This document shows, in pieces, positions 16,237 through 52,923 of a stretch of 64,000 nucleotides of DNA (positions are counted from its first letter, which is position 1; every line of letters starts with the position of its first letter). The position numbers were made by a program, and so were the translations under genes. The notes under the pieces were generated by a model. That model was not told where the DNA came from and did not search any database. It worked only from the letters and a program-made list of their open reading frames with translations. The DNA is from a virus (Duplodnaviria > Caudoviricetes): positions 1-64,000 of the IMG/VR virus record IMGVR_UViG_3300002514_008521; one strand, given 5' to 3'.

Positions 16237-17400
16237 TTACTCCAAATAGTGCCCTATGGTCTCTTCATAGTTTGCGTTTATTGCTTCTTGCTTATACAGG
16301 GGTACAAGCTTTTCCTTAAGATCTTCAGCCCACTTGGTAGGTGCTGAATTGCCTTTATAAAACTTTCTCAATCTTTTCTTCGCGTCATCTTCGCGCGGTT
16401 CAGCCCACCTGGAACCCTTTATAAAGATAACATTGTCGATACGTGTTGGATCAATATCAACCATATCATATTCTACCCCTATAAACTTTCCCTTTCCGAG
16501 GAAGTCTAGATGTCCAGACCACGAAGTAGCAATAACGGGTAGGCCGGAACATGTTGCCTCAAGTAGAGGAAGACCGTAACCCTCACCCCTTGTTAGCGAT
16601 ACTAGCGCCTTTATCTTGGGATGCCTATACAGGCTAGCCATTTCTTCTTGTGTCATCGTACCATGTAACAGATGGAATTTGGGATATTTTCCTGGACGGA
16701 CCTCTTTTAAAACAGAGCTGAATGTATTCAACGTTACTTGCTTGTCTATCTTTGTGTTACGGCCGCTATTCGTCTTAAGGACAATACCTACGTCCTTATC
16801 ATCCTTAAATTCTTCGCACAACCACTTAAGAGTATAAAACAGGTTCTTTCTATCATTTTTAGGATTATTGCCTGTTAGTTGTCCTACCACTAAAAAGTTA
16901 AAATCCGTGCTTAATTCTAAATCAAGGGATTCTAATTCACCATCAACAATCTGTTCATAAATTGCCTCCGGGACAACATCTAAAGGCTTACTGACATATC
17001 CTGTGTTCTCAAGACAGCGCTTCGCGTGGGTGGAAGGAACAATAACATGATCCATATCATTACATGCGTGGACCCAGCTGCCATTGCACCTGTCAGTCTC
17101 CACAACCGCTGACATTCCAATATTTGTTCTGGCTAGGTTGGGATCCCATTCATTGGGTAGTTGAAGTTGTATGGAAACATCAAACCCTCCTTCAGGAGGG
17201 GGATTTGAACGGCGCATAATTTCACCAATCAAACCATTTTCAAGATCTGGATTAACCATCCAGCTAGTCATTCCCCATGGAACAATACCAACGTGAAGAT
17301 CTATATTTTTTTTAGTTAAAAGATATTTGAAAACCTGTCGTGAGTGGGTACCATATCCTGAATAACTTAAAAGGGGCGCTCTTAAAATAACTTTTTTCAT
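16237..17400 (-). CDS. Glycosyltransferase, GT-B fold (GT4-like)
   Basis: SGYGTHSR N-terminus; SLTRGEGYGLPLLEATCSGLPVIATSWSGHLDF GT4 motif. Confidence 0.9.
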   Translation of the reverse strand: MKKVILRAPLLSYSGYGTHSRQVFKYLLTKKNIDLHVGIVPWGMTSWMVNPDLENGLIGEIMRRSNPPPEGGFDVSIQLQLPNEWDPNLARTNIGMSAVVETDRCNGSWVHACNDMDHVIVPSTHAKRCLENTGYVSKPLDVVPEAIYEQIVDGELESLDLELSTDFNFLVVGQLTGNNPKNDRKNLFYTLKWLCEEFKDDKDVGIVLKTNSGRNTKIDKQVTLNTFSSVLKEVRPGKYPKFHLLHGTMTQEEMASLYRHPKIKALVSLTRGEGYGLPLLEATCSGLPVIATSWSGHLDFLGKGKFIGVEYDMVDIDPTRIDNVIFIKGSRWAEPREDDAKKRLRKFYKGNSAPTKWAEDLKEKLVPLYKQEAINANYEETIGHYLE

Positions 17401-17409
17401 TACTTTTTC

Positions 17410-18651
17410 CTATAGGGTTGTGCAGTTCCATGGCTCATATCTAGATCTCCAATTTTCATGGAGCTCAGTCAAAGTCTCATCCCATCTGGTGACGACATCA
17501 TTCAGATTAAATTCAGAGTCCACATACTCTAACACTTTTTTACTTAACTTTTCTCTTTCGTCAGGAGACAATTCATATAATTTCATTATCCCCTTTGCTG
17601 TCGTCTCATTTGAACAATAATCTTCATAGATATAGGGAACCTGTTGTGAGCCAACGAGACTCTTAAGCTCTACGGGAAGTGCAACGCCATTTTCCGTACC
17701 ATCGCGGTGATCAACAACCTGTCTGGTAAGACCACCGGTTTGCACGGCAATAATTGGGTTTCCTGTCTGCATAGACTCTAGGGTTGAAAGGCCGAAGCCT
17801 TCAGCATAACTTATTTGTATACATGTATCAGTGATGTTGTGAAGGAGATTCATGTGATCAAAGGAGACCCTCTCGGTTGAAAATACAACATTATCCTTTA
17901 TTCCCAACATCTCAACAGCGCTAAGCAGATTAGGGCCCTCTTGGTCCAGTGGATCTGTATGCATTAACAATGTAGCTTTTTTGTGGCCGTGCTGTTCTTC
18001 AAGCATATCAAGAAATAATTTCCATGATTCCAAGACATCATTCGGACGTTTTCGCCTGGCATTCCTATTAACCCATAATGCAACGAAATGGTCAAGTCGC
18101 TCTTTACCCAAAAACTGTTCTCTAAATTTCATTTTTTCGTGTGCCGGTAATGGAAAAAACGTATCTTTGGGTAATGCATGTGGAATAAAATTTGTTCGCT
18201 CTGGTACTATTTCTTTACACATTCGGTATGTCAAGTGAGAATGACAATTAATTAAATCTGTTGACTCATAGAGAACTTTATTAAATTCTGGAACGGGATA
18301 ATTATCCCAAACATGCCAGTACGCAATGGGACATACCTGGTGGATTTCATCTTCCATCTCCCACAACCAAATAAAAAAGCGTGGATCCGTAAATATTAGT
18401 ATTAAATCCGGGCGTTCGGTAGCTAGTGCCAGCCTAATCGTATCCCGATCACCGAATCCATCAATTGGTTTAATAATAAAATCATCATTGACCACAACGG
18501 TTTCGTAATTATCATGTTTAATTGCAGCGCCGAATTGTCTTACGGTCCATTTTCCTGTCTTTATAAGACCCTCTGCAAGATATCTACTCTGACAACCGAC
18601 ACCAGACGTACATAGCGCGTGGTCTGACAATAACAATATTTTCTTCTTCAT
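17410..18651 (-). CDS. Glycosyltransferase, GT-B fold (GT4-like)
   Basis: VNRNARRKRP and AEGFGLSTLESMQTGNPII motifs. Confidence 0.9.
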   Translation of the reverse strand: MKKKILLLSDHALCTSGVGCQSRYLAEGLIKTGKWTVRQFGAAIKHDNYETVVVNDDFIIKPIDGFGDRDTIRLALATERPDLILIFTDPRFFIWLWEMEDEIHQVCPIAYWHVWDNYPVPEFNKVLYESTDLINCHSHLTYRMCKEIVPERTNFIPHALPKDTFFPLPAHEKMKFREQFLGKERLDHFVALWVNRNARRKRPNDVLESWKLFLDMLEEQHGHKKATLLMHTDPLDQEGPNLLSAVEMLGIKDNVVFSTERVSFDHMNLLHNITDTCIQISYAEGFGLSTLESMQTGNPIIAVQTGGLTRQVVDHRDGTENGVALPVELKSLVGSQQVPYIYEDYCSNETTAKGIMKLYELSPDEREKLSKKVLEYVDSEFNLNDVVTRWDETLTELHENWRSRYEPWNCTTL

Positions 18652-18717: not shown

Positions 18718-19575
18718 TTATTCAACCACAGCTCGTCCTTTCATTTTTTCCCAATCCCTATTCTCTCTTACCTCGTCATTCTTTTCTCTTACTGCTGAAA
18801 GTACTCTTGGAACAACGTCCATAGATTTCATATGAAAAATGAGTGCGGATATATCTTTCGGAAAACAGTGGCCACCAAACCCATAATGCCCATCGGGACC
18901 GGGAACGGAAAAGTGTGATTTTCCTAAACGGTTGTCATATAAGGCATACTCTGTGACCTTATCATAATCTATCCCTAGCGCTTCACACATTTGATACATT
19001 TCATTTGAAAATGACACCTTCGTTGACAAGAAACAGTTAATAAAATATTTCACCATTTCAGCGTGTGTTGAACTAGTTTTTACAATAGGAATCGTAGGAA
19101 ATGCCTTTCGAAACATTGTTTTCACGCGTGAGGATGATGGTCGCTCACCACCTATTATAATTCTTGACTGATTTTTAAAGTCATCAAATGAATTTGCCTC
19201 AGTCAAAAACTCTGGACTGAATACAACACTGACACAATCCGATGTTGCCTGATTTAATCTTTCAGTCGTGCCAGGAGGTATTGTTGATTTAAGTATTAAT
19301 ATCTTGTTGCTTAATTTATTAGACAAACAAAACGTATCGATACTATTGACAGTGTTCTCTACTAACGTGGTTACACACTCACCGGTTTTTGCCATGGGTG
19401 TGGGTAAACACACAAATATCATGTTTGCTTTTGTGACGAGCTCATTTAAAGATTCACATGTAGAAAGTTCTTTGCGAATATCATATGTCTCTATAGTATA
19501 AAAGGAGCTTAGCCCCTCACGAATTGCTGAGCCTACAAATCCCTGGCCCACAATGCCCACAATGTCATTTTTCAT
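18718..19575 (-). CDS. ugd: UDP-glucose/GDP-mannose 6-dehydrogenase family, short form without the C-terminal domain
   Basis: VGQGFVG Rossmann motif, FVCLPTP, KSTIPPGTT, SPEFL, catalytic GFGGHCFPKD. Confidence 0.85.
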   Translation of the reverse strand: MKNDIVGIVGQGFVGSAIREGLSSFYTIETYDIRKELSTCESLNELVTKANMIFVCLPTPMAKTGECVTTLVENTVNSIDTFCLSNKLSNKILILKSTIPPGTTERLNQATSDCVSVVFSPEFLTEANSFDDFKNQSRIIIGGERPSSSRVKTMFRKAFPTIPIVKTSSTHAEMVKYFINCFLSTKVSFSNEMYQMCEALGIDYDKVTEYALYDNRLGKSHFSVPGPDGHYGFGGHCFPKDISALIFHMKSMDVVPRVLSAVREKNDEVRENRDWEKMKGRAVVE

Positions 19576-19584: not shown

Positions 19585-20409
19585 TTATGTACAATGTTCT
19601 GTATTATAGAATTGACAAAATGTACATGATTCCCTGTTCTTTATAAAGAAACCCCTCCTAACGGAAGAAATCATGTTATTTACTATTTTTCGTGCCTTTT
19701 CGATGGCTTTTGGTCCGGAAGATATTTTAAATAGATCACACATCTTTCCTGGTTTACCACCTCTCTTAAGAAGCACAAATCCGCAGCCAACGTCTTTTAG
19801 CGGGATATCATTTTTTGTTGCCCAGAAATATTTGTAAAGTATAATCTGTGCATGGGTCAAAAAATCTTGCTTCTTTCTTCTATCCCACCCGTAAGACTTT
19901 GCTGTTTTCCAGTCAAGGATCCAGTATTTATATGTCCCGTTCTTTCTTGGGACCTTAATAATGACGTCTATAAATCCCTTAAAGAGCATTTCTTTTTCCG
20001 GAATTTTTTCGTATAGCTCTTCCTCTGCCTGTACAGGTTCCCAGCCGGGAAACTCTTTATCTAAAAAAGCCGGAACGTCGTTCCACATGTTAGAGGCCCA
20101 TGTGCACCACTCTTCAACGGGATGATACTTGTACCAGCCAGGTTGTTTTTTGACCCATTCAGGATCATCAAACCCGTTCTTTGTCCATGCATCTCGAATA
20201 TTCTGAAGGAGTTTTTCACGGGGTACCTTACCGGTATTTATATAACTTTCACACCCTTCATGAATATTAATACCAAAATCTAGATAAGGAGATGGCTCAC
20301 TAAGATCTATTTTATCTATGTGTTGTAGTTTATGTCTATAAGGGCACTCTTTCCAATTCCTTACTTCAGAATATGATACGTGCCTCTTTCCTGTTGGGAA
20401 TTCTTTCAT
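19585..20409 (-). CDS. PD-(D/E)XK nuclease, Cas4/AddB-like with four-Cys Fe-S motif
   Basis: SYSEVRNWKECPYRH; GFIDV...ILDWKT; C-terminal CTFCQFYNTEHC. Confidence 0.85.
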   Translation of the reverse strand: MKEFPTGKRHVSYSEVRNWKECPYRHKLQHIDKIDLSEPSPYLDFGINIHEGCESYINTGKVPREKLLQNIRDAWTKNGFDDPEWVKKQPGWYKYHPVEEWCTWASNMWNDVPAFLDKEFPGWEPVQAEEELYEKIPEKEMLFKGFIDVIIKVPRKNGTYKYWILDWKTAKSYGWDRRKKQDFLTHAQIILYKYFWATKNDIPLKDVGCGFVLLKRGGKPGKMCDLFKISSGPKAIEKARKIVNNMISSVRRGFFIKNRESCTFCQFYNTEHCT

Positions 20410-20460: not shown

Positions 20461-21741
20461 TTATCTTAGCTGGTCAATATTTTCAACAACCTTTTTGATT
20501 GCTGCCACAATATTTTTCATATGTTCCATATCATAAGGTGCACGAATGTCTAGCGTGGCTATCAGTTCCTCGCTATATAAGCGCTCAACTACCGGGCAGC
20601 CAGGATTTTCATAATCAATATGTGATGCATAGTCTCTAATCACCCAATGCTTATTAGAACGATAGATATCTTGTTTATAGAGGGGGGGAACATAACCACA
20701 CGCAAAATTTACACCTTCAGCATTTAGAGCCTCTACAAATTTTTCCCTACTTACACCTGAGTCAAGCTTTTTATATCTCATAGGGAAATTATACCATGAA
20801 GGTGTATGATCATATTCGGGAATCATCAATTCAATATGTTTAGTGTCCTTTAAGTTTTGCATTAAATATTGGCCCATCTGATTTTTTAATTCTAGTACAC
20901 ACCCTAACTTATTCCACTGTGCAGTTGCAAATGCTGCGCTGATCTCTGTCATTCTAAAGTTATAGCCTATTATGCCTGAATTTCCATATACATCAAAGCA
21001 ATAATCGTACGCGGGTGAACCGGTAGCCACCTTTGCAGTAGAAGCCACCTCACCGTGATTTCTGACATATCTCATACCATTATTAATTCTTTCATCATTG
21101 GTTATTGCGATACCACCCTCACCGGATGTTATATGCTTTGACTCTGTCAAACTAAAACCACCGACATGCCCAATCGTACCACATAAACTACCTTTATAGA
21201 AAGACATGGGAGATTGTGCACAGTCTTCAAAGACAAATAAATCATGTGCCGATGCAATACTCATGATCTCGTCCATATCCGCAGGTATACCAAAAAGATG
21301 CACAACAAATATCGCCCTTGTTTTATCAGTTATTTTTCTTCTGATGTCTTCTGGATCAATACACCCGCTATCTTCACACACGTCAGCAAAAACAGGTATC
21401 GCACCACATGAAATAATCGACGTTGCACAAGATGTCATTGTGTAAGGTGTGATAATCACTTCATCACCGGCCTCTAGCCCTAAGGCTAGCATAGCAGCGA
21501 CAATCCCGTTTGACCATGTATCAAATGCAACGGCATGCTCAGCCTGTGTAGAACTTGATACAACCTCTTCAAAATTAATGACCGCCGGGCCGCCCTCATA
21601 ATTTCCTGCACGGAAACCGGAGAATTTGTTTCTATTAAAACACTCTAAGATTTCTAATATTTCTTGTTTGTCAACATTTGGCCATTGATGATCCACTTTG
21701 CTCTCAATTACCGGTTTACCACCATTTATAGCTAACTTCAT
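20461..21741 (-). CDS. DegT/DnrJ/EryC1/StrS PLP sugar aminotransferase
   Basis: EDCAQS and SLTESKHITSGEGG (catalytic Lys present); start moved to MKLAINGG at 21741 (TAATG overlap). Confidence 0.9.
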   Translation of the reverse strand: MKLAINGGKPVIESKVDHQWPNVDKQEILEILECFNRNKFSGFRAGNYEGGPAVINFEEVVSSSTQAEHAVAFDTWSNGIVAAMLALGLEAGDEVIITPYTMTSCATSIISCGAIPVFADVCEDSGCIDPEDIRRKITDKTRAIFVVHLFGIPADMDEIMSIASAHDLFVFEDCAQSPMSFYKGSLCGTIGHVGGFSLTESKHITSGEGGIAITNDERINNGMRYVRNHGEVASTAKVATGSPAYDYCFDVYGNSGIIGYNFRMTEISAAFATAQWNKLGCVLELKNQMGQYLMQNLKDTKHIELMIPEYDHTPSWYNFPMRYKKLDSGVSREKFVEALNAEGVNFACGYVPPLYKQDIYRSNKHWVIRDYASHIDYENPGCPVVERLYSEELIATLDIRAPYDMEHMKNIVAAIKKVVENIDQLR

Positions 21742-22799
21742 TATTTTTTCCACTCCTCGGGGACTTTGCCGTCTTTTGTCATTGATGTAATTCTACATTG
21801 AAACTTTCTATTTTTATAATTCTTATTTTTTATTGGAAGGCTTACTTTTTTCCCGGTTTCATGGGACATATAAATCCCTACCGCTACTTCCAAAGATTTC
21901 ACTGCATCTTCACCTGAGCACATTAATTCTTCATTGTCATTTATTGTTGCCAATATATTTTCTATGGCTTTTGCCATGGGTGAAATGCCTTGAGAGCCCC
22001 TTATAGTTTCATTTATATATTTGTCGCCATGCAACCTGTAACCCTCTAGAAGAACCTTTTTTGTCATAGCAAATATTGTTGCTTTATCACCCCTGGCATT
22101 TATACCGAGTTGAGGGTTCTCCTTCCAGGCACAATCAACATATGCCGACATGTTATTTTCAAACTCTAGATATGCCGTACATCCCGGATCATTTGAACCA
22201 TCATCTATAACGGACCCATTGACCGCAGTAGGTGTTGTACCCGAATACATTATCGAAAGATCTATTAGGTGAGTTCCACAGTTCATTAATCCCACATGAG
22301 ACTGGCAGTCTAACACGTATGGTATACCAATTGCGCCAGACTTTATCCTATCTGTAATGTCTATATGCAAATCATCCCATCTTCTCCAATAGTTAACCGC
22401 TAGCTTCACGCCTTTTTTCTTGCACTCTTTGATCATTTTATATGATGTTGATAATGAATTAGAGATAGGCTTTTCACACCATATAGCTTTTAGTGAAGAA
22501 CAGTGCTTTAATGCCAGCATAACAAGATCATAATGAGAATCAACCGGTGTGCATATACTCAAAATATGGATATCTTCTTTTTCAAACATCTCTTTAGGGT
22601 CATTGTATACACCTTCAACCTCCCACCGATCACAAAACTCAGCCAGGGCTGATTGTGAAGGGTCACATGCGGCAATTAGACTTACAGACTCATTAAAAGA
22701 ATAGGCTCCGGCATGTGTACATGGTTTCTGTGTTGCTAACAGATCCTCAAACTTACCCGCTATTCTACCACATCCCACTATTGCTGAATTGTACATCAT
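21741..22799 (-). CDS. Gfo/Idh/MocA NAD-dependent sugar oxidoreductase
   Basis: AIVGCGRIAG, SICTP, WCEKP, NYWRRW motifs. Confidence 0.85.
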   Translation of the reverse strand: MMYNSAIVGCGRIAGKFEDLLATQKPCTHAGAYSFNESVSLIAACDPSQSALAEFCDRWEVEGVYNDPKEMFEKEDIHILSICTPVDSHYDLVMLALKHCSSLKAIWCEKPISNSLSTSYKMIKECKKKGVKLAVNYWRRWDDLHIDITDRIKSGAIGIPYVLDCQSHVGLMNCGTHLIDLSIMYSGTTPTAVNGSVIDDGSNDPGCTAYLEFENNMSAYVDCAWKENPQLGINARGDKATIFAMTKKVLLEGYRLHGDKYINETIRGSQGISPMAKAIENILATINDNEELMCSGEDAVKSLEVAVGIYMSHETGKKVSLPIKNKNYKNRKFQCRITSMTKDGKVPEEWKK

Positions 22800-23542
22800 G
22801 CATTCCTTGTATCATCATTAACATACGTTGCGCCTAGGCCTGCATTAATTTCCATCATACCCGGGGTCTTTAATAATAAATCACATATGTCTTGTAGGGT
22901 ACATGAATATCCCAACTTATCAAAAACCTCATTAATAAACACTAGGTCTTCTTTATAATCAAGAGTTAACCTGGTACCGTCAGGCACGTTATAGGGAGGC
23001 GCTGGAAACTTAAGAATCTTATAGCGATCAGGGTTTCGATATATATAAAGTGAAACATTCTCTAGATCATCCGGATCGCTGGTTCGTCCTGAAACATCAC
23101 GAAGAGTCTGTGTAGAAAATACTTGGACATCACTACCTCGTGGATATGCGTTTGTTATTGTTGTGTTTGCAACATAGTCTACATCTTCGCTTAGATAAAG
23201 TTGCACATGTTGATCAACAAGAACGGGATCAATCATAGGACAATCACCCGTAAGCTCAACAATGATATCAGCGTTATTATGCTCAGCAGCTTCCAAGACT
23301 CTCATAAGTACATTACTTTCGCTACCCCTATAAAAGCTTATGGATTCTGACTCTAGATATCGACATAATTCATCATCATTTTTGTTGGTTGTGGTTGCGA
23401 TAATAACATCATCAATTAGCTTACTAGACATCACACGATCAACCATTATCTTAATCATGGGGTAATCACCATGTTTCATCATAACCTTTCCAGGAAGCCT
23501 AGAGGATGACATCCTGGCCTCTATAGTAGCGCATACTTTCAT
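22796..23542 (-). CDS. SpsF/PseF-like cytidylyltransferase (CMP-nonulosonate synthetase family)
   Basis: IEARMSSSRLPGKVM, RGSESNVLMR, LTGDCPMIDP, RLTLDYKED. Confidence 0.85.
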   Translation of the reverse strand: MKVCATIEARMSSSRLPGKVMMKHGDYPMIKIMVDRVMSSKLIDDVIIATTTNKNDDELCRYLESESISFYRGSESNVLMRVLEAAEHNNADIIVELTGDCPMIDPVLVDQHVQLYLSEDVDYVANTTITNAYPRGSDVQVFSTQTLRDVSGRTSDPDDLENVSLYIYRNPDRYKILKFPAPPYNVPDGTRLTLDYKEDLVFINEVFDKLGYSCTLQDICDLLLKTPGMMEINAGLGATYVNDDTRNA

Positions 23543-26621: not shown

Positions 26622-26637
26622 AGCATACCTCTAAACT

Positions 26638-26666
26638 AGTATAAACAACATCGTCTAAAAGTTCAA
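26638..26666 (-). promoter_or_regulatory. Sigma70-type promoter TTGAAC-N17-TATACT upstream of the NeuB-family gene
   Basis: Minus strand reads TTGAAC ttttagacgatgttgtt TATACT agtttaGAGGTatgct ATG; same -35, -10 and pre-10 TTGTT as the 20416 copy. Confidence 0.7.
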
Positions 26667-40894: not shown

Positions 40895-40897
40895 TTA

Positions 40898-42034: not shown

Positions 42035-42039
42035 TATTA

Positions 42040-45542: not shown

Positions 45543-45550
45543 ATTTCACC

Positions 45551-46351: not shown

Positions 46352-46698
46352 AGTTCCTCTATTCTTTTGGCTTTGTCATCTACGATTAAATCGAAATGAG
46401 GTTTTGGATTCGGACTAGTACCTGTTACAAGATCATGATATTTACATCCCCATGCCTTTAACTGCTTGCTAGTATGATCAGAATAATCCTTACCTGAGAT
46501 TGATCCACGTGCGGTCCAGTAAACAACTTTCCAACCTTCATCATATAATTTATTGATTTTTGCAATATTATCAAAATTAGGCTCCGACAAATCGTACCTG
46601 CGGACATCTGAATAAAAACAGATCGTTTCGTCGATGTCAATTAAGGCGACGCGTTGTGTACCCTTGTCTGAAAATCTATTTGATTCATGAAACTTCAT
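46348..46698 (-). CDS. Small HAD-family phosphatase-like protein
   Basis: DIDETIC (DxD), WTARG, KP.FDLIVDDKA. Confidence 0.75.
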   Translation of the reverse strand: MKFHESNRFSDKGTQRVALIDIDETICFYSDVRRYDLSEPNFDNIAKINKLYDEGWKVVYWTARGSISGKDYSDHTSKQLKAWGCKYHDLVTGTSPNPKPHFDLIVDDKAKRIEEL

Positions 46699-47070
46699 TT
46701 AATCCCCCTTTGTTATTCTATGGCTGTCACTGTCAAAATGTTGCGTTGAGAACTCAAATAACTCAGAGTCTTCTAGGGCAACCATCTGATGGCGTAGGCC
46801 GGTATAGACATGAAAATTTTCTCCCGGAAGGAGTATTTTCTGTTTTGCACTTGATATATCATCACTATCTGAGTAGTATACCATTAATTTTCCTGACTGT
46901 AGATAGAATACTTCATCTTTTATTTTATGATAATGCCATGAACATCTTTTGCCGCTTTTAAAAAATAGTAGCTTTCCACAGTACTTTTCATTATTGACTA
47001 TCCATCTTTCATATCCCCACCCTTTGGGAACATGTTTCATTTCACACGCAGTCTTATCTTCTGTCTTCAT
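46699..47070 (-). CDS. Cupin (sugar isomerase-like)
   Basis: VPKGWGYE, SWHYHKIKDEVFY, GLRHQM, FEFSTQHFDSDS. Confidence 0.75.
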   Translation of the reverse strand: MKTEDKTACEMKHVPKGWGYERWIVNNEKYCGKLLFFKSGKRCSWHYHKIKDEVFYLQSGKLMVYYSDSDDISSAKQKILLPGENFHVYTGLRHQMVALEDSELFEFSTQHFDSDSHRITKGD

Positions 47071-47461
47071 GTTTTTTTGCCATATTATTCACTATATTGG
47101 TGGTTGAATAATTCTTGACCGTATCAAAAATTATAACTTTGCATATATCGCTTCCTACAACGGAATCAACCTTATAATCCCCTCCCTTTACAAGGATATC
47201 AGGTTTTATTTTTTTGATTAGGTTGTAAGGCGTGTCTTCATCAAAGATAATAACGTCATTAACCCATTTTAGTGATAGCAAAGCATACTTTCTATCATTT
47301 TGATTATTAATGGGTCGGGTAGGCCCTTTAAGACGAGCAACGCTGGCATCACTATTTATTCCAACAATCACATGATTACCCAAACTATGACAAAACTCGA
47401 GTAGCTCAAGGTGACCTCGATGAAGAATGTCAAAGCATCCATTTGTGAATATAGTTTTCAT
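47054..47461 (-). CDS. Heptose-1-phosphate nucleotidyltransferase (HldE C-terminal / RfaE2)
   Basis: FTNGCFDILHRGH, GINSDASVARLKGPTRPI, KPDILVKGGDY, YSTTNI. Confidence 0.9.
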   Translation of the reverse strand: MKTIFTNGCFDILHRGHLELLEFCHSLGNHVIVGINSDASVARLKGPTRPINNQNDRKYALLSLKWVNDVIIFDEDTPYNLIKKIKPDILVKGGDYKVDSVVGSDICKVIIFDTVKNYSTTNIVNNMAKKHEDRR

Positions 47462-47472
47462 TAATCCCTAAG

Positions 47473-48444
47473 TTATTTAGTAGATTTTAGTAGTGCTATA
47501 TCGGATGTGACCATCTTTTTTACTAACTCATCAAAACTAGTTCGTGGTGACCATCCTAGTTCATTTTTTGCCTTTGTATAGTCGCCTCTTAAGACATCCA
47601 CTTCAGCAGGACGCATATACCTAGGGTCTTGTTTTACATGTGCTTCCCAATCGTCAATTCCCACGAAGTTAAATGCCGCACTTAAGAAGTCTCTTATTGA
47701 ATGAGCTTGATTAGTTGCGATTACGTAGTCGGAGGGAGCATCTTGTTGCATCATAAGCCACACAGCCTCCATATAATCTGGTGCGTATCCCCAGTCTCTC
47801 CTTGCATCTAAATTCCCTAATGAAATATGATCGGCTAAACCTAGATGTATTCTGGCCACACCATCTGAAATTTTTCTAGTAACAAACTCTAGGCCTCTTC
47901 TTTCGGCCTCATGGTTAAATAAGATTCCGGAAATATTAAACATATCATATGACTCACGATAGTTCTTTGTGATCCAGTGGCCATACAGTTTGGCAACCCC
48001 ATAAGGGCTTCTAGGATAAAATGGTGTATTTTCATTAGCTGGATTTTCAACCATCCTTCCGAACATTTCAGAACTACTGGCCTGATAGAATTTTATAGAT
48101 TTTTTGTATTCTCTAATTGCCTCCAAAACCCTAAGAACACCCAGACCGGTTACGTCAGATGTATGTTCAGGTGTGTTCCAACTTTCACCCACAAAGCTTT
48201 GAGATGCAAAGTTATAAATTTCATGAGGATCACACTCTTGAAGTATTCTTAGCAAAGAATTTTGATCAGTTAGATCACCCGTTAAAAATGTTATTTTTCC
48301 CTCGAGGTGACTAGTATTCGTACGATTTTTTACAGAAGACCTTCTTTCCATGCCGAATACCTCATAGCCTTTCGCTAGAAGTAAGTCGGACATGTAGCTT
48401 CCGTCCATTCCATTAACACCGGTTATTAATGCTCTTTTTGTCAT
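47473..48444 (-). CDS. gmd: GDP-mannose 4,6-dehydratase
   Basis: ITGVNGMDGSY, FYQASSSEMFG, PFYPRSPYGVAK, GILFNHE, FVTRKI, LGNLDARRDWG, RPAEV. Confidence 0.93.
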   Translation of the reverse strand: MTKRALITGVNGMDGSYMSDLLLAKGYEVFGMERRSSVKNRTNTSHLEGKITFLTGDLTDQNSLLRILQECDPHEIYNFASQSFVGESWNTPEHTSDVTGLGVLRVLEAIREYKKSIKFYQASSSEMFGRMVENPANENTPFYPRSPYGVAKLYGHWITKNYRESYDMFNISGILFNHEAERRGLEFVTRKISDGVARIHLGLADHISLGNLDARRDWGYAPDYMEAVWLMMQQDAPSDYVIATNQAHSIRDFLSAAFNFVGIDDWEAHVKQDPRYMRPAEVDVLRGDYTKAKNELGWSPRTSFDELVKKMVTSDIALLKSTK

Positions 48445-49355
48445 GATAAAACCTCTTTGAGCATTTTAATATACTCATCTTTATGCTTCTTTATATTATA
48501 CCTTTGAACATTATTAAAGTTTAGTTCGATATCTTCATTCGTAGGGTAATATATTTCATGCGGAATATTAATTATGCAATTTTGATGAAGTATTTTGCTA
48601 GCGACCCCTACATCAGTAGAAACAATAGGCACTTTCATAGCTGCAGCTTCATAAATTGCCTGGGGACCACCTTCATACCTAGAAGATACTATATAGAGAT
48701 CACAACATGCATACATTTTTCGTACTACATCTATCGGTGCTAGCTCTACGCCAGTAAACGGAATATTACATTCAGATAGTCGATCACAGATATATTCCCT
48801 TCTCCATCCCCCCAATAACACCAAAATATCTTCTCTATTCATCTTTTTTACATATTCAACAAATAAATCTGGACCTTTTTCAAGTTTTGGTTTCCTGGTA
48901 CCACCCTCAGTATCGCGTTGAAATGAACCAATGATAAATTTATCTTCAGGTAGGCCGAATTGTTTTCTGCACTCTGATTTGTCCTCTATAAACCATGTAC
49001 TTGAATCATACCAATACGGGATTACATAGATCGGTTTCTCAGTAAGTTTTTTTATAAATCCAGCGGTTGTATCATTAGGGACATGATATGCATCGACATA
49101 TTGATCCCTTAGCTTAAAGGCATTTATTTTTTTTTCGTCAAACTTATCTGGAACTATATGATGCTCAGTAACTACAACTTTTTTTTCCGAAAGTATTTTA
49201 GTAGGTACCTGGTTCCAGCACCAGCCGGCCAGTAGCCACAAGATATCACAAAAATTAATATCATCTGTTGTCATATGTGAAACATTTTTCTTCCATTCCT
49301 GAAGCTGTCTGTCACAAATCCAATTTTCCCGAGGGGCTAGAACAAAAATTTTCAT
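48441..49355 (-). CDS. Glycosyltransferase, GT4-like
   Basis: SFQRD, EKGPD, SRYEGGPQAIYEAAAMKVPIVSTDVG. Confidence 0.88.
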   Translation of the reverse strand: MKIFVLAPRENWICDRQLQEWKKNVSHMTTDDINFCDILWLLAGWCWNQVPTKILSEKKVVVTEHHIVPDKFDEKKINAFKLRDQYVDAYHVPNDTTAGFIKKLTEKPIYVIPYWYDSSTWFIEDKSECRKQFGLPEDKFIIGSFQRDTEGGTRKPKLEKGPDLFVEYVKKMNREDILVLLGGWRREYICDRLSECNIPFTGVELAPIDVVRKMYACCDLYIVSSRYEGGPQAIYEAAAMKVPIVSTDVGVASKILHQNCIINIPHEIYYPTNEDIELNFNNVQRYNIKKHKDEYIKMLKEVLS

Positions 49356-49356
49356 T

Positions 49357-50268
49357 TTAAGAATCTTCTCTTATTTCCTGCAAGATTTCAATATACTTTA
49401 AAGCAGTATCTTTAACATCTATTGGGGAACTTGATGTATTAGAAATAGTATTATTAAAATTCATGGGTGGAGGTTCATATAACTTTATTGGCTCAAATCC
49501 CCACTCTTCCTCAACAATTACTGTCGCATTCTTTCCAGCAATTTCTTTTGTTCCACCAGTACTAGAACACACTACATGACATCCGGATGCCCTGGCATCA
49601 ACAACAACATTCGGACAATGGTCTAAGTATGCTAAGTGTAGAAACGTCTCAGAACGCTTATAAAGTGCTATCAATGTATTCCAGTCTAGTGGCCCTGAAT
49701 AAAATATTCTCGGATCATTAACTTGGTAATCCGGATTGGGTCCAGCGATTATAAGGCATCGATCATTCGGAGCGTGATCTAGAAAATATTTCACGTTTTC
49801 CTCTAATCTTTTGTGAGGGCGCCAGGACGATGCACAGGACCACACACCGGTAAAATTATTTAACACACCACTATCTAATGGTGATATATCATCAATCCAA
49901 TCTAATTTTGTACCATTATGTACAACATGTGCATTTGTATGAGTACCAAAGTACTTTTCGACTAATTTCTGATTGAAATGCGATTGGTATATTACTGCAT
50001 CTGCAGTTTTAAAACTAGATTGTATCGGTGAATTTAATTCTTTCCAGTCTTGTGAAATATTGAAATAAATTCCATCTAGACGCAAAGCAGTGGGAGCTAT
50101 TTTAAAGTTAGACTGAATAAATGACAGTTGCACATCAATATTTTCAGAGTTAACATTTGTGAGCACAAAATTGTCATCATCTTCAGATATCTGGCTGGCT
50201 AGTTTTTTTGCAAAATTGTTAGGGCCGCTAGTACTAGTAAGGTTTACATTATCAAAAAGAATATTCAT
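49357..50268 (-). CDS. Glycosyltransferase, GT4-like
   Basis: WRPHKRL, LAYLDHCPNVVVDARASGC. Confidence 0.85.
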   Translation of the reverse strand: MNILFDNVNLTSTSGPNNFAKKLASQISEDDDNFVLTNVNSENIDVQLSFIQSNFKIAPTALRLDGIYFNISQDWKELNSPIQSSFKTADAVIYQSHFNQKLVEKYFGTHTNAHVVHNGTKLDWIDDISPLDSGVLNNFTGVWSCASSWRPHKRLEENVKYFLDHAPNDRCLIIAGPNPDYQVNDPRIFYSGPLDWNTLIALYKRSETFLHLAYLDHCPNVVVDARASGCHVVCSSTGGTKEIAGKNATVIVEEEWGFEPIKLYEPPPMNFNNTISNTSSSPIDVKDTALKYIEILQEIREDS

Positions 50269-50999
50269 GTGAGATACCCTCTTTCACGGACCCACTCAGC
50301 TGATCTTTTTTGTTTTTTTGATCGATCACATGTGAATAATTCAGGATTTGATAGATTTATATTATAATGATAACAAACCATTGGTAAGAATAATCTGGGA
50401 CGATTTTCTAACCCGGCTTTATGTAGCATTGGTAGAAATACTGCCTGATCACAACCAATCATAATCCACTCATCATCATCATCTTTAAAGTTCTTAATGT
50501 TGATATTATTTATCGCATCTTTTCGAAATGTCTTAAGATGACTTGAGACCCATGGATGCTTGTATATATCAATATCATCACCACTTAGGGGTCCTGATAT
50601 ATTTTGTGTTGTAAATGCCCATCTTTGCTTAGTCCATAGAACTGCAGGGTTTGAGTCATTATATACGTGATTGATTATTGCCAGGGTGTCTAAGTCGGTT
50701 AACCAATCCCCCCCATCTAGGCGACATATAATATCATTATCATTTATAGAATTAACTGCATCTAGTGTATTTCTGACTTCACCAAATTTTTCGTTTCTTG
50801 CTACTACTTGTAAGCGATCGCCCAGACCGAATGCTTTTGATATATCTTCAGCGCGTTGGGGTGTAGTATCTGTTGACATATCATCGTATATTACCATTCT
50901 CCAATTTGAGTATGATTGTGATATTACCGAAAGTATTGTTTGCTGGATTTCTTCTTCGCAGTTATAGGCAGGGGTTACAAAAACAAATTGATTATTCAT
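50265..50999 (-). CDS. Glycosyltransferase, GT2 family
   Basis: VTPAYNCE, YDDMSTD, RLDGGDWL. Confidence 0.88.
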   Translation of the reverse strand: MNNQFVFVTPAYNCEEEIQQTILSVISQSYSNWRMVIYDDMSTDTTPQRAEDISKAFGLGDRLQVVARNEKFGEVRNTLDAVNSINDNDIICRLDGGDWLTDLDTLAIINHVYNDSNPAVLWTKQRWAFTTQNISGPLSGDDIDIYKHPWVSSHLKTFRKDAINNINIKNFKDDDDEWIMIGCDQAVFLPMLHKAGLENRPRLFLPMVCYHYNINLSNPELFTCDRSKKQKRSAEWVRERGYLT

Positions 51000-52923
51000 G
51001 TTCCAGGCGCTCTTTTATAACCTGAGGATATTCTGAGTCCAGTACAAGATAAGGGGTTGGCTTATTAAAGTCGACCGGATCATGAAATACCCAACCTCCC
51101 ATTTCATCTTGCAATTTATTTGCTAGCGTCTCTATATCATTTTCCGTTACTTCGGACCATGGTTTTTGAAAGAACATGTTATTTTCAGCAGTATCTTCCT
51201 GGGTTATATCAAATAAGCTTTGCCAGTGCTTGGACCAATAATCTCTATAGGTACGAATCTTTCTAGATAAATCAAACCAAGAGAAATGATGCACACAAGG
51301 TAACATTTCTGCACAGCGTACAAACCATTCAGCATATTTCTCTAATGCTTGTTTGTCACCTCCAAGTGCACGAAGGCGATATTCATGTGCTTCATTATTA
51401 TAAAAGTTTGCATGTGGAATTACATCACCGGTATCACTATGTATATAATCACATCCATCGGTACCCAGTTTTGCAAAAAGAGTTCCATCATCATCATAGT
51501 TTCTCAAAGCCTTAGGTATCCCGTGTGTAATTCCTTCATTATTTCTAGAAAGTCTCCACTTCCATGGATTAACATCAACACGTACTTTTCCTTTTTTACC
51601 CCAATACTCGACGACCGGTAAACACAGAATATCAGTATTTCGTGGGAATGATCTCATGAGGCTAAGTACTTTATCATAATCATTTTCATGAACCACTTCA
51701 TCAGCATCCTGTTGCCAACAAAATTCCCTGGTACATAATGATCTTGCATATGCTTTTTGTGCACCATCAAATACTGCGAATCTTTTATTTTCCCAGTCTC
51801 TTTTTTCTTGATGAATTACTAACCTAACTTCTTTATCACTCCACTCTTTCAACTCTTCCCATGTGCCGTCTGTTGAACCACCGTCAACAACAACCACTTC
51901 ATCACAAAATCCAAGTAATGATTTAATGCACTCTTTCCATGGATAATCATGGGTATTGCAGTCTAATGTTGTGGTATATCCACTTAGCTGGGGTATATAG
52001 TTCATGTTGTGCTTTATCCCTTTCCAGAATACATCACGTGCAGCATACAAATATGATTCAGTCTCTAAATTATCCTCAGTGTCAAACCACTCTTCATCTT
52101 TATGTTGAACATCTTCGTTTAAATGAAGTTTACACCCTAATAACTTGGCCTCAATAACCATCCTAGGACATGTATCCCAACCCTGTGGCAAATACACAAA
52201 CCCTTCAGCCTGTGCTAATTTCTCTAGAAGCATGCCATATTCCAGGCCCCAGACTACTTCGTACTCTTTACCGTTATCTTTACACCACTGCTCAGCTAAT
52301 CCGGCACCTTTGACCCAACTAGTTGAACCTAAGACAACCCATCCTTTTCGGGTGTGATTTTTATATTTTTCTCTTAATAGTTTAAGTGTTATGAAGAATT
52401 GATCATCAAAGACTGAACTTAAAACATGGTTTTCGACCTGGGATAGTGCGGGAAACTTTTTAAAATATATCTGTTGTTGAGCTTCTGACATCCACCACAG
52501 AGATTTCGCACTCATCATGAAAGCTGCTATCATCTTTCCATAAAGATCATTCTCACATGTGCAGGGAGTCTTTTCAGCTTCTTCATGACGCTGAGGTGAA
52601 CGGTATTTACAATATTTATAGTCATACTCTAGGATTGAATAGTCTAAATTTCCCATTATTGTCGGAATCAGGTTCTTATCTACACCTGCATAATTCCCAA
52701 ATACCCAATAATTTTTATGACCCTTCTCGAGAAGCTCCATTGTTAACTGATGTGATCTAATTTTTTTAACAGTAAAGGGAGAAGAATCGATTAGTGCTTG
52801 TGTGGTTAATTCGGCACCACCGACATAATCTTCCTTGAATGCATCAGCAACAAAAATGATGTCTGTATCTGCTATAAGAATATTGTCTTTCTTTCCGTCT
52901 TCAAATAATTTTGTATTGAACAT
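50992..52923 (-). CDS. Bifunctional glycosyltransferase (GT-B N-terminal half + GT2 C-terminal half)
   Basis: N-terminal half LPQGWDTCPRMVIEAKLLGC; C-terminal half EVVVVDGGSTDGT and WQQDADEVV. Confidence 0.8.
   Translation of the reverse strand: MFNTKLFEDGKKDNILIADTDIIFVADAFKEDYVGGAELTTQALIDSSPFTVKKIRSHQLTMELLEKGHKNYWVFGNYAGVDKNLIPTIMGNLDYSILEYDYKYCKYRSPQRHEEAEKTPCTCENDLYGKMIAAFMMSAKSLWWMSEAQQQIYFKKFPALSQVENHVLSSVFDDQFFITLKLLREKYKNHTRKGWVVLGSTSWVKGAGLAEQWCKDNGKEYEVVWGLEYGMLLEKLAQAEGFVYLPQGWDTCPRMVIEAKLLGCKLHLNEDVQHKDEEWFDTEDNLETESYLYAARDVFWKGIKHNMNYIPQLSGYTTTLDCNTHDYPWKECIKSLLGFCDEVVVVDGGSTDGTWEELKEWSDKEVRLVIHQEKRDWENKRFAVFDGAQKAYARSLCTREFCWQQDADEVVHENDYDKVLSLMRSFPRNTDILCLPVVEYWGKKGKVRVDVNPWKWRLSRNNEGITHGIPKALRNYDDDGTLFAKLGTDGCDYIHSDTGDVIPHANFYNNEAHEYRLRALGGDKQALEKYAEWFVRCAEMLPCVHHFSWFDLSRKIRTYRDYWSKHWQSLFDITQEDTAENNMFFQKPWSEVTENDIETLANKLQDEMGGWVFHDPVDFNKPTPYLVLDSEYPQVIKERLEHE

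What the first reader, a model, noticed from the sequence alone, without database searches (positions are those of the whole stretch)
16237..52923. 36.7-kb, 41-gene phage glycan island with no export machinery: an autonomous cytoplasmic (virion) glycosylation system
The island encodes synthesis of several nucleotide sugars, heavy tailoring (formyl, acetyl, carbamoyl, methyl, hydroxyl), and at least 7 clear plus about 4 putative glycosyltransferase genes. I see no Wzx, Wzy, Wzz, ABC exporter, undecaprenyl-phosphate transferase or any multi-pass membrane protein, all of which O-antigen or capsule loci normally need. It sits between the tail-fibre and baseplate genes, whose products are Ser/Thr-rich. 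Inference: a complex glycan is built on a cytoplasmic acceptor, most simply the virion, analogous to fibril glycosylation in giant eukaryotic viruses. This could shield against host or environmental recognition. Alternatives are host-LPS remodelling using host exporters, or DNA hypermodification.
Basis: partly seen in the sequence, partly recalled or inferred. Interest (0 to 1): 0.92.

Follow-up and report, generated by a model that had tools for sequence, protein, structure and literature searches.

The report
Swappable sugar-coat gene island in phage
A fragment of a very large marine phage carries 41 genes for soluble enzymes that make rare sugars and join them into a chain; the outer genes are fixed across hundreds of related phages and the middle is swapped like a bacterial serotype locus, and the chain most likely coats the phage's own tail proteins, though no chemistry shows this yet.

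Summary
Window 16237-52923 has 41 ORFs. Seven have clear glycosyltransferase (GT) domains, and a fold model adds an eighth GT domain. They sit with a pseudaminic-acid-type pathway, a Gmd/aminotransferase/formyltransferase route, a branched deoxysugar module, and acetyl, formyl, carbamoyl, methyl and dioxygenase tailoring genes. None is a membrane protein.

The contig is about a quarter of a marine jumbo myovirus, not a bacterium. In five large relatives and 54 of 54 informative IMG/VR loci the island has fixed ends. The 5' end is a GT-B/GT-A fusion plus a GT2. The 3' end is PD-(D/E)XK nuclease, GT4b and GT4a, butted onto the baseplate operon. The middle varies from 8 to 37 kb.

The nuclease-GT4-GT4 triad also occurs in cultured phages of Flavobacterium and Microcystis. 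A 92%-complete relative has no initiating transferase, flippase, polymerase or ABC exporter.

Outer tail proteins carry [ST]-G-[ST] about three times more often than chance; T4 proteins do not.

Virion glycosylation is the best reading (about 0.5). Host glycolipid remodelling remains a live rival, and DNA modification is unlikely.

This scan found the same lineage's swappable island before on other DNA. Similar islands are published for pelagi- and cyanomyophages.

The parts
50992..52923 (-). 5' bookend: 643-aa two-domain glycosyltransferase (N-terminal GT-B, C-terminal GT-A/GT2)
   Evidence: Pfam GT2 at residues 330-425. AF2 pLDDT 89.5. Residues 18-309 are a GT-B fold, Z about 20; the GT-A half is nearest to SunS/ThuS, K4CP and RmlT. 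52-64% identical in G001-G005; more than 2,400 homologues at about 60% identity.
50265..50999 (-). 5' bookend: GT2, 244 aa
   Evidence: Pfam PF00535 1.6e-15; follows the 643-aa GT in all five relatives, 30-43% identity.
48441..50268 (-). two GT4 genes (303 and 304 aa), variable part
   Evidence: Pfam Glycos_transf_1 / Glyco_trans_1_4; homologues in G001, G002 and G004 only.
46348..48444 (-). Gmd (47473), small cytidylyltransferase-like (47054), cupin (46699), unknown 116 aa (46348)
   Evidence: GDP_Man_Dehyd 5e-126, CTP_transf_like 4.6e-20, Cupin_2.
42925..46351 (-). SAM methyltransferase (45551), carbamoyltransferase (43821), GT4 N-domain protein (42925)
   Evidence: Methyltransf_24 8e-17; Carbam_trans_C 1e-62 and Carbam_trans_N 1.7e-30; Glyco_transf_4 2.8e-7.
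37106..42879 (-). unknown 279 aa, DegT aminotransferase (40898), formyltransferases (40145, 38795), unknown 227 aa, GT-like unknown (37924), PfkB-type kinase C-terminal part (37106)
   Evidence: Pfam. Atlas: 37924 falls in viral 'putative glycosyltransferase' clusters and its true start is probably residue 33.
30471..37116 (-). branched/C-methyl deoxysugar module: unknown 296 aa, SDR (35213), B12 radical-SAM (33697), RmlC-type epimerase (33206), ThDP E1 alpha/beta pair (32579, 32042), DegT-family enzyme (30877), unknown 161 aa
   Evidence: Pfam.
29414..30463 (+). PhyH-like 2-oxoglutarate dioxygenase, the only plus-strand gene
   Evidence: PF05721 1.5e-4, at the curated cut-off.
20461..29301 (-). 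nonulosonic-acid (pseudaminic-type) module: GT-B-like unknown (28198), PseB-like (27180), GNAT (26663), NeuB-family synthase (25608), formyltransferases (24937, 23539), PIG-L deacetylase (24297), CMP-sugar synthetase (22796), GFO/IDH/MocA oxidoreductase (21741), DegT aminotransferase (20461)
   Evidence: Pfam. NCBIfam: PseB 3.2e-91, NeuB 7.7e-81, PseI 2.2e-67, all below the equivalog cut-offs. Atlas structure: 28198 resembles LpxB, GT28 and TagF.
19585..20409 (-). 3' core: Cas4-like PD-(D/E)XK nuclease, not a glycan enzyme
   Evidence: PDDEXK_1 2e-20; one N-terminal Cys plus a C-terminal Cys cluster read by eye in the sequence; found upstream of the GT4 pair in almost every locus long enough to show it (43-82% identity) and also in immuto and Mel-JY01.
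18718..19575 (-). short UDP-glucose dehydrogenase-like protein (285 aa)
   Evidence: UDPG_MGDP_dh central and N domains only; a GxGxxG and a GGxCxxKD-type motif read by eye, no C-terminal domain; 53-74% identical in relatives.
17410..18651 (-). 3' core: GT4b (413 aa)
   Evidence: Glycos_transf_1 1.1e-11; EX7E invariant in 36 sequences; 60-68% identical in 54/54 loci at a fixed offset; 33% to immuto, 28-40% over two segments to Mel-JY01.
16237..17400 (-). 3' core: GT4a (387 aa); its stop is 6 nt from the first baseplate-module gene
   Evidence: Glycos_transf_1 2.6e-8; EX7E invariant; 38-64% identical in 54/54 loci; 32% to immuto and Mel-JY01.
52924..53187 (-). 264-nt intergenic region upstream of the island, with a (TCAGTA)x9.8 array and a partial inverted copy; candidate regulatory or terminator element
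   Evidence: TRF score 97; RNA fold z -2.2; TCAGT-type arrays seen by eye at the same place in G001-G003; the only such cluster on the contig.
53188..60224 (-). upstream fibre-like genes (212, 724, 736, 513 aa): candidate acceptors and variable neighbours
   Evidence: PHROG tail-fibre hits for 54020 and 58683; [ST]G[ST] enriched in 56306 and 58683, z about 4.
2..16230 (-). downstream baseplate and outer-tail module (TM100, 241, 125, 544, 418 aa, gp25-like, Baseplate_J-like, 531 aa, LamG 1281 aa, 310 aa, LamG 1024+ aa): candidate acceptors
   Evidence: Pfam; immuto homologue annotated as baseplate wedge; [ST]G[ST] enriched in 7851, 4001, 3061 and 2-3073.

Best explanation
What it is (shown). 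The stretch is a lineage-wide, cassette-like glycan-synthesis locus of a marine jumbo myovirus. It is made only of soluble, acidic enzymes. Four core proteins carry five GT domains: a GT-B/GT-A fusion and a GT2 at the 5' end, and GT4b and GT4a at the 3' end. These are fixed in position and highly conserved. Between them each phage carries its own set of nucleotide-sugar pathways, tailoring enzymes and extra GTs. In this phage the set includes a pseudaminic-acid-type nonulosonic acid, an N-formylated 6-deoxy-aminosugar route from GDP-mannose, and a branched or C-methylated deoxysugar, with acetyl, formyl, carbamoyl, methyl and hydroxyl decoration.

How it most likely works (inferred). During late infection, host UDP-GlcNAc and GDP-mannose are converted into rare activated sugars in the cytoplasm. 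The conserved GTs lay a conserved inner glycan on a phage-encoded acceptor. The variable GTs then add a strain-specific outer part.

The acceptor (inferred). The most likely acceptors are the phage's own exposed outer baseplate and fibre proteins, possibly at Ser/Thr in [ST]-G-[ST] sites, glycosylated before or during tail assembly. The result would be a 'viral serotype' on the particle that varies between relatives.
For: - Composition and lack of TM proteins.
- Fixed ends and a variable middle of 8 to 37 kb in six genomes. Both GT4 genes are present, on the same strand and at fixed offsets, in 54/54 IMG/VR loci. They are more conserved (GT4b 60-68%) than the baseplate anchor protein (26-41%).
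- More than 2,400 homologues of the 643-aa GT at about 60% identity.
- The PD-(D/E)XK-GT4b-GT4a triad is also present in phages of Flavobacterium (Bacteroidota) and Microcystis (Cyanobacteria). This fits a phage-intrinsic acceptor better than a host-specific one.
- The GT4a stop is 6 nt from the baseplate module, and there is no gap over 112 nt from 52923 down to at least 3061, the lowest point where gaps could be read.
- No Bac_transf, WecA-type, Wzx, Wzy_C or ABC2_membrane match in the contig or in four relatives, one 92% complete. No Wzx/Wzy-sized multi-TM ORF in that relative.
- All GTs are acidic, pI 5.0-6.4.
- [ST]-G-[ST] occurs 71 times against 24 expected in the structural ORFs (z 9.7). 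It is confined to outer proteins and absent from the enzymes and the inner baseplate.
- The enrichment is 4.6-fold across 44 homologues of the 531-aa protein, with six positionally conserved sites.
- The motif is also enriched in outer tail proteins of G003 and immuto, but not in T4 fibres or baseplate proteins (14 observed, 17.6 expected).
Against: - No chemical evidence for any glycoprotein.
- GT4 and GT2 enzymes, two-domain GTs and the fixed-ends/variable-middle layout are also what bacterial O-antigen, LOS and capsule loci look like.
- Universal host acceptors exist (undecaprenyl-linked sugars, lipid A-core, diacylglycerol), so conservation of the core across host phyla does not prove a phage acceptor.
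- In immuto and Mel-JY01 the core triad sits near replication and metabolism genes, not tail genes.
- One relative has no fibre gene at the 5' end.
- The [ST]-G-[ST] sites are partly conserved in position and could be turn-forming structural elements of beta-sandwich domains.
- The acidic-pI argument is a heuristic, and marine proteomes tend to be acidic.
- No protein-specific transferase family was found in the five records: the MptE-like/Maf Pfam search found nothing, and no TPR or OGT-type domain appeared among the window's own ORFs.
Confidence: 0.5

Rival explanations
1. Host envelope remodelling. The soluble phage GTs work at the inner leaflet on a host lipid acceptor (lipid A-core, or an undecaprenyl-linked primer made by the host). 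Host MsbA, Wzx or an ABC transporter then exports the product. This changes the infected cell's surface, for example to block superinfection or to stop progeny sticking to debris.
For: - This is the published reading of the analogous hypervariable fibre-plus-GT islands of pelagimyophages and cyanomyophages (PMC7029224).
- The enzyme families are those of LPS and CPS loci.
- A dual-domain GT plus two GT4s plus methyl/carbamoyl enzymes resembles ABC-transporter-dependent O-polysaccharide assembly (own knowledge).
- LOS-type assembly needs no dedicated flippase or polymerase (own knowledge).
- A conserved small bitopic membrane protein lies next to GT4a.
Against: - The core GT pair is kept in phages of Bacteroidota and Cyanobacteria, whose lipid A-cores differ.
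- The core GTs are more conserved than virion proteins.
- A hypervariable product would have to pass host exporters that are usually substrate-selective (own knowledge).
- A lytic, non-growing cell replaces little of its surface (own knowledge).
- The GTs are acidic rather than basic as many peripheral-membrane GTs are.
- The small membrane protein belongs to the baseplate module: immuto keeps the homologous baseplate-module start (a homologue of the 241-aa protein, preceded by a 97-aa ORF in the matching position, homology not detected) about 26 kb from its GT pair.
Confidence: 0.28
2. DNA hypermodification. The GTs build a glycan on a hydroxymethylated base of the phage genome, and the embedded PD-(D/E)XK nuclease deals with unmodified DNA.
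For: - GT-B enzymes glycosylate phage DNA, and T4 alpha-glucosyltransferase is among the fold neighbours (Z 16.1).
- A Cas4-like nuclease is always next to the GT4 pair.
- Relatives encode a CMP/dCMP-hydroxymethylase-like enzyme.
- Multi-sugar DNA glycans are known (Pyle et al. 2024, cited in PMC12619734).
Against: - In immuto_2-6A, which has the same triad, LC-UV-MS/MS found dA, dC and dT canonical and dG fully replaced by fdPreQ1. No glycosylated nucleoside was reported (PMC10516641).
- In relative G003 the hydroxymethylase-like gene sits in its own cassette with Glf, a GT and an epimerase next to DNA polymerase III alpha, about 110 kb from the island.
- A locus of 41 genes and at least 8 GT domains, with a nonulosonic acid, is far beyond any known DNA glycan.
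Confidence: 0.06
3. Another cytoplasmic product. The locus makes a free or protein-primed polysaccharide, or a small glycoside, that acts inside the infected cell. Possible roles are a carbon sink, an osmolyte, a matrix around assembly sites, or a decoy for a host defence.
For: - The closest sequence matches of GT4b in the PDB are small-molecule GT4 enzymes (sucrose-phosphate synthase, TreT, BshA, MshA), all weak.
- Two-domain GTs are typical polymerases.
- There are no export genes.
Against: - Hypervariable, heavily decorated sugars point to a surface under diversifying selection rather than to a metabolic product.
- The matches to small-molecule GTs are weak (E 2.5e-5 at best) and may only reflect which GT4 enzymes have solved structures.
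Confidence: 0.12

Closest known systems
Hypervariable 'host recognition cluster' of pelagimyophages and cyanomyophages (Zaragoza-Solas et al. 2020, PMC7029224)
   Same: A large (34-45 kb mean) non-syntenic island inside the structural region of marine myophages. It mixes tail-fibre genes with many GTs and sugar-nucleotide genes (rfaE, UDP-glucose dehydrogenase).
   Different: Those are T4-like phages. This lineage has no T4-like match. Here the island has fixed GT bookends, five conserved GT domains and a nonulosonic-acid pathway. The published reading is host O-chain modification.
Mycobacteriophage virion glycosylation (Freeman et al. 2023, known here through its citation in PMC12619734, and own knowledge)
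   Same: Phage-encoded soluble GTs glycosylate the phage's own structural proteins in the cytoplasm.
   Different: That case involves a few genes, no sugar-nucleotide pathways of this scale, and glycans on capsid and tail-tube C-termini. Homology to those GTs was not tested here.
Clade-specific fibril glycosylation clusters of Megavirinae giant viruses (own knowledge; reviewed for large DNA viruses in PMC4691112, listed, not read)
   Same: Virus-encoded pathways for rare bacterial-type aminosugars plus soluble GTs. Cluster content differs between clades, and the glycan ends up on the particle surface.
   Different: Those are eukaryotic viruses with no shared ancestry of the particle. The acceptor there is demonstrated; here it is not.
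'Moraphages', large aquatic phages with four core GT orthogroups (Perez-Hernandez et al. 2025, PMC12619734)
   Same: Aquatic phages of up to 307 kb with predicted Bacteroidota hosts, four putative GT orthogroups among the widely shared core orthogroups that paper curated, and no phage RNA polymerase.
   Different: Whether this contig belongs to that lineage was not established. The paper does not describe the island, its bookends or its variable middle.
Bacterial O-antigen/LOS/capsule loci
   Same: Conserved flanks, a variable serotype-determining middle, and the same enzyme families.
   Different: No initiating phosphoglycosyl transferase, flippase, polymerase, ligase or exporter. The locus is embedded in a phage tail operon.

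Membership tests
Wzx/Wzy- or ABC-transporter-dependent O-antigen/capsule locus | Initiating polyprenyl-phosphate glycosyl/phosphoglycosyl transferase (Bac_transf or WecA type) | tested here: not met
   PF02397 and PF00953: 0 of 5 records, while 10 and 12 of the 14 control genomes match.
Wzx/Wzy- or ABC-transporter-dependent O-antigen/capsule locus | Flippase, polymerase or ABC-2 permease (multi-pass membrane proteins) | tested here: not met
   PF01943, PF04932 and PF01061: 0 of 5 records. Hydropathy scans of the island and of a 92%-complete relative find nothing of that kind.
Wzx/Wzy- or ABC-transporter-dependent O-antigen/capsule locus | Nucleotide-sugar pathways plus several GTs, conserved flanks, variable middle | tested here: met
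Pseudaminic acid pathway (PseB, C, H, G, I, F) | PseB inverting 4,6-dehydratase and PseI synthase | tested here: inconclusive
   TIGR03589 PseB 3.2e-91 (305.6 bits, cut-off 407.75). NeuB_NnaB 271.7 bits and PseI 227.6 bits, both below their cut-offs.
Pseudaminic acid pathway (PseB, C, H, G, I, F) | PseC aminotransferase, PseH N-acetyltransferase, PseF CMP-synthetase | tested here: inconclusive
   DegT, GNAT (Acetyltransf_3) and CTP_transf_3 genes are contiguous. This is family-level evidence only.
Pseudaminic acid pathway (PseB, C, H, G, I, F) | PseG UDP-sugar hydrolase | tested here: inconclusive
   No Pfam or NCBIfam hit. ORF 28198 has a GT-B/GT28-like predicted fold in the Atlas.
Phage virion glycosylation (mycobacteriophage type) | Phage-encoded soluble GTs expressed with structural genes | tested here: inconclusive
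   The GTs are soluble and contiguous with the baseplate operon. Expression timing is unknown.
Phage virion glycosylation (mycobacteriophage type) | Glycan covalently attached to virion proteins | not testable with these tools
   Only indirect evidence: [ST]-G-[ST] enrichment in outer tail proteins.
Pelagi-/cyanomyophage host recognition cluster | Hypervariable island with fibres and GTs inside the structural module | tested here: met
   description in PMC7029224.
Pelagi-/cyanomyophage host recognition cluster | T4-like (Tevenvirinae-type) phage backbone | tested here: not met
   No nucleotide match. The baseplate protein matches only immuto, Mel-JY01 and LR756508 at about 32%.
Phage DNA glycosyl-hypermodification system | Base hydroxymethylase (or equivalent) coupled to the GTs | tested here: not met
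   There is none in the island or on the contig. In relative G003 it lies in a separate cassette.
Phage DNA glycosyl-hypermodification system | Glycosylated nucleosides in virion DNA | not testable with these tools
   Published LC-MS of relative immuto_2-6A reports none (PMC10516641).

The most novel reading that the evidence does not exclude
An abundant marine jumbo-phage lineage has a true 'viral serotype' system. Conserved GTs start an O-glycan on [ST]-G-[ST] sites of the outer baseplate and fibre proteins. A swappable cassette, here ending in a formylated or acetylated pseudaminic-type acid, gives each strain its own particle coat. The coat would evolve under diversifying selection as bacterial O-antigens do.
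Probability: 0.3. Interest if true: 0.85.

Novelty: new variant of a known kind. Interest (0 to 1): 0.62.

Why it matters
If the glycan sits on the particle, large marine phages would carry strain-specific sugar coats built by up to about 37 kb of their own genes. This would be a cost and a kind of diversity so far documented only for giant eukaryotic viruses and, in miniature, for mycobacteriophages. It would bear on adsorption, on aggregation and stickiness of virions in seawater, on grazing and decay of particles, and on recognition by host defences.

The lineage is common: more than 2,400 homologues of the fusion GT in public data. The same core occurs in two cultured phages, so the question can be settled at the bench.

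If the target is instead the host surface, this would be one of the largest surface-conversion modules known in a lytic phage.

Either way, the island is a source of enzymes for rare sugars (N-formyl, carbamoyl, branched, nonulosonic).

Tried and rejected
- Nucleotide search of 20 kb against phage genomes found no match.
- A single-protein scan of IMG/VR found nothing until an alignment was used.
- Exact-protein look-up of the window's own 544-aa protein was not on record. The ENA locus could not be used as a genome handle.
- The sigma-70 promoter and terminator scan gave no enrichment over shuffles and is uninformative. I could not derive a late-promoter motif by eye.
- No RNA holder was listed for the stretch, so expression timing is untested.
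- Laying contigs of four marine runs showed only that a near-identical phage, nonulosonic module included, is in a second sample, and that many relatives pile up on GT4b and the UGDH-like gene. It gave no strain with a swapped middle.
- MptE-like/Maf search: none in five records.
- PDB sequence searches of the 643-aa GT and of unknowns 36226, 42040 and 39460 found nothing usable. NCBIfam found nothing for the seven unknown ORFs.
- S/T-rich tract search: none on the contig, so the mucin-like acceptor idea was dropped.
- Other sequon forms: G-x-T-[SC] is not enriched; S-[GA]-x-T and [ST]-A-[ST] are only weakly enriched.
- The Freeman et al. paper is not held, and there is no paper on Mel-JY01.
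- Whether the contig is a 'moraphage' could not be settled.
- The host was not identified.

Full report
**What the DNA is.** The window is the first 64 kb of a single 88,448-bp contig, which IMG/VR/CheckV rates at 24% complete. Almost all genes run on the minus strand. The flanks encode gp25-like and Baseplate_J-like proteins, large LamG-domain proteins, tail-fibre-like proteins, a PIN-PhoH protein and a weak tubulin-like protein. The Baseplate_J-like protein matches only Flavobacterium phage immuto, Microcystis phage Mel-JY01 and a 484-kb uncultured phage, at about 32% identity. The DNA is held by marine metagenomes. It is therefore part of a marine jumbo myovirus.

**The observation.** 16237-52923 holds 41 ORFs with no internal gap above 112 nt. 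Pfam shows the following:
- Seven GT proteins.
- A contiguous nonulosonic-acid module: PseB-like, GNAT, NeuB-family, two formyltransferases, PIG-L, CMP-synthetase, GFO/IDH/MocA and DegT.
- A true Gmd with an aminotransferase, formyltransferases, a carbamoyltransferase, a methyltransferase and a cupin.
- A split RfaE-like kinase and nucleotidyltransferase.
- A module of SDR, B12 radical-SAM, RmlC, a ThDP E1 pair and a DegT-family enzyme.

NCBIfam puts the dehydratase nearest PseB, and the synthase scores somewhat better against the NeuB model than against PseI; all three scores are below the equivalog cut-offs. Seven ORFs have no family. Two of them look GT-like in the ESM Atlas.

A Kyte-Doolittle scan finds no membrane protein in the island.
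- One gene is a Cas4-like nuclease.
- The Ser/Thr excess of the flanking proteins is modest, with no S/T tracts.
- The pathways start from host precursors, so 'autonomous' is overstated.
- The contig is only a quarter of a genome.

**Relatives change the picture.** The 544-aa baseplate-module protein has hundreds of homologues. An alignment of them pulled 80 IMG/VR loci. In all 54 loci with more than 4.5 kb upstream, both GT4 genes are present, on the same strand and at fixed offsets. GT4b is 60-68% identical and GT4a 38-64%, although the anchor protein itself is only 26-41% identical. The PD-(D/E)XK gene follows in nearly all of them.

I then compared five large relatives of 123-281 kb. The one rated 92% complete was read almost whole (280 kb); of the other four I read only the 20-52 kb around the island. 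In every one the island starts with the 643-aa GT (52-64% identity) and a GT2. It ends with (UGDH-like/SDR)-PD-(D/E)XK-GT4b-GT4a, followed directly by the baseplate module. The middle differs in length (8, 17, 26.5, 28.6, 36 and, in this phage, 36.7 kb) and in content. Only a minority to about half of the middle genes of any relative have a homologue here.

The 643-aa GT has more than 2,400 homologues at about 60% identity. Its AF2 model (pLDDT 89.5) is an N-terminal GT-B domain (Z about 20 to GT4 enzymes) fused to a GT-A domain whose nearest solved folds include the glycocin S-glycosyltransferases SunS and ThuS, chondroitin polymerase K4CP and RmlT. Both GT4 proteins keep the EX7E motif. The locus thus has five conserved GT domains and a swappable middle, like a serotype locus.

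This scan reached the same description for this lineage on other DNA (e1-5389287, e1-5389295). I reproduced it independently here.

**Beyond the lineage.** The ordered triad PD-(D/E)XK-GT4b-GT4a is also present in the cultured phages immuto (host Flavobacterium) and Mel-JY01 (host Microcystis), followed there by further glycan genes. In those phages it sits near replication and metabolism genes rather than next to the baseplate. This cuts both ways:
- The core is older than its present position, so adjacency to tail genes is not a universal clue.
- It is kept in phages whose hosts belong to different phyla, which fits a phage-encoded acceptor more simply than a host-specific one.

**Export machinery.** Bac_transf, WecA-type, Wzx, Wzy_C and ABC2_membrane models find nothing in the contig or in four relatives, one 92% complete, while the control genomes ring. 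In that relative the only large multi-TM ORF is a 1,472-aa protein that I take to be a tape-measure-like protein, by length and position of the hydrophobic segments only. This supports 'no export genes'. It cannot exclude use of host MsbA or host exporters.

**DNA modification.** Published LC-UV-MS/MS of immuto_2-6A DNA found canonical dA, dC and dT, with dG fully replaced by fdPreQ1. No glycosylated nucleoside was reported (PMC10516641). Relative G003 has a thymidylate-synthase-family protein whose best solved match is CMP 5-hydroxymethylase (1.8e-40, against 1e-23 for thymidylate synthases). It sits in a cassette with UDP-galactopyranose mutase, a GT and an epimerase next to DNA polymerase III alpha, about 110 kb from the island. 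If this lineage glycosylates DNA, that cassette is the obvious candidate. The island is unlikely to serve DNA.

**A candidate acceptor signal.** Earlier notes of this scan on other phages reported Ser/Thr-Gly-Ser/Thr enrichment in outer tail proteins. I tested it here.
- In the 14 structural ORFs of the window the tripeptide occurs 71 times against 24.0 expected from within-protein shuffles (z 9.7, 0 of 500 shuffles).
- In the 41 island ORFs it occurs 6 times against 10.4 expected.
- The control tripeptides with N or D in the middle are at expectation.
- The excess lies in the outer proteins (531 aa, LamG 1281 aa, 310 aa, LamG 1024+ aa, and two fibres). It is absent from Baseplate_J, gp25 and the inner proteins.
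- Across 44 distinct homologues of the 531-aa protein (45% mean identity) it is 4.6-fold enriched, and six sites are kept in place in 24-38 of 44 sequences.
- Outer tail proteins of G003 and of immuto show it too. T4 gp34-37, gp8-12, wac and gp18 do not (14 observed, 17.6 expected), despite similar Ser+Thr content.
- The AF2 model of the 531-aa protein (pLDDT 78.8) is a chain of beta-sandwich domains. The sites lie at strand ends, turns and loops, with one inside a strand.

This is compatible with a sequon, but equally with a turn motif of these domains. It is circumstantial.

**Weighing.**

| Reading | Points in favour | Confidence |
|---|---|---|
| Phage (virion) acceptor | soluble acidic GTs; core more conserved than the virion proteins; kept across host phyla; contiguity with the baseplate operon; no carrier or export genes; outer-protein motif | 0.5 |
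| Host envelope remodelling | enzyme families, dual-domain GT and serotype-like layout are those of bacterial surface-glycan loci; universal lipid acceptors exist; LOS-type assembly needs no flippase of its own; this is the published reading of the analogous islands (PMC7029224) | 0.28 |
| Another cytoplasmic product | weak matches to small-molecule GT4 enzymes; polymerase-like dual GT; no export genes | 0.12 |
| DNA modification | GT-B folds, adjacent nuclease, hydroxymethylase-like gene in relatives | 0.06 |

**Novelty.** Large GT-rich hypervariable islands in the structural region of marine myophages are published (PMC7029224). Four core GT orthogroups are published for 'moraphages' (PMC12619734). 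Phage virion glycosylation is known from mycobacteriophages. New relative to those papers are the bookend architecture with five conserved GT domains, the cassette-like middle reaching about 37 kb with a phage-borne pseudaminic-type pathway, the ancient nuclease-GT4-GT4 triad shared with cultured phages, and the outer-protein motif. I class it as a new variant of a known kind. Its main value is that it is now testable in culture.

Noticed in passing
window 63225-63588 (-): A phage-borne tmRNA gene (ARAGORN; Rfam RF00023, 89.4 bits, full length) with tag peptide ANDNVEYDYALAA. Its 3' part overlaps the annotated start of the tubulin-like ORF 62008-63285, whose true start is probably further downstream.
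   Followed up: partly
window 53058-53188: A hexamer array (TCAGTA)x9.8 lies right after the 212-aa fibre ORF, with a partial inverted copy. It is the only such cluster on the contig. By eye, arrays of TCAGT/TCAGA units stand at the same place, upstream of the 643-aa GT, in relatives G001-G003. It may be a regulatory or terminator element of the island.
   Followed up: partly
window 18718-19575 (-): A 285-aa UDP-glucose-dehydrogenase-like protein. By eye it keeps a GxGxxG and a catalytic-Cys-type motif, but it lacks the whole C-terminal UDP-binding domain. It is 53-74% identical across the lineage, so the short form is maintained. Its activity is unexplained.
   Followed up: partly
window 19585-20409 (-); L111 7801-8742; L112 6929-7825: A Cas4-like PD-(D/E)XK nuclease (Cys-rich C-terminus) is always immediately upstream of the GT4 pair, in this lineage and in immuto and Mel-JY01. 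Why a DNA nuclease is locked to two GTs across such distances is unexplained.
   Followed up: partly
window 15928-16230 (-): A conserved 100-aa bitopic protein (N-terminal TM helix, acidic tail) heads the baseplate module in the lineage relatives (38-66% identity); immuto has an unmatched 97-aa ORF in the same position. It is the only clear membrane protein near the island.
   Followed up: partly
L097 1991-6727 (G003:161991-166727): In a 92%-complete relative, a cassette lies next to DNA polymerase III alpha: a CMP/dCMP-hydroxymethylase-like protein, UDP-galactopyranose mutase, a GT, an AAA_28 protein and a GalE-like SDR. It is a candidate system for a glycosylated (possibly galactofuranosyl) hydroxymethyl-pyrimidine in DNA.
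   Followed up: partly
window 56195-56305 and 58517-58682: Seen by eye: a GC-rich stem followed by a T-run after the 736-aa fibre gene, and T-rich hairpin-like elements after the 513-aa gene. The fibre genes may be separate transcription units, unlike the gap-free island and baseplate block. No terminator scan covered this region.
   Followed up: no
window 53188-54060 (-): The frame of the 212-aa fibre-like ORF stays open upstream of its ATG, back to a pair of stop codons just inside the 3' end of the 724-aa gene (translation).
   Followed up: no
window 17338-19338: In marine metagenome contigs laid at 80% likeness or more, depth over GT4b and the UGDH-like gene is 5-10 times that of the neighbouring genes. 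Many co-occurring relatives share this piece even at the DNA level.
   Followed up: partly
window 16000-54000: GC content of the island (0.34-0.40) is lower than that of the flanking structural genes (0.39-0.46).
   Followed up: no
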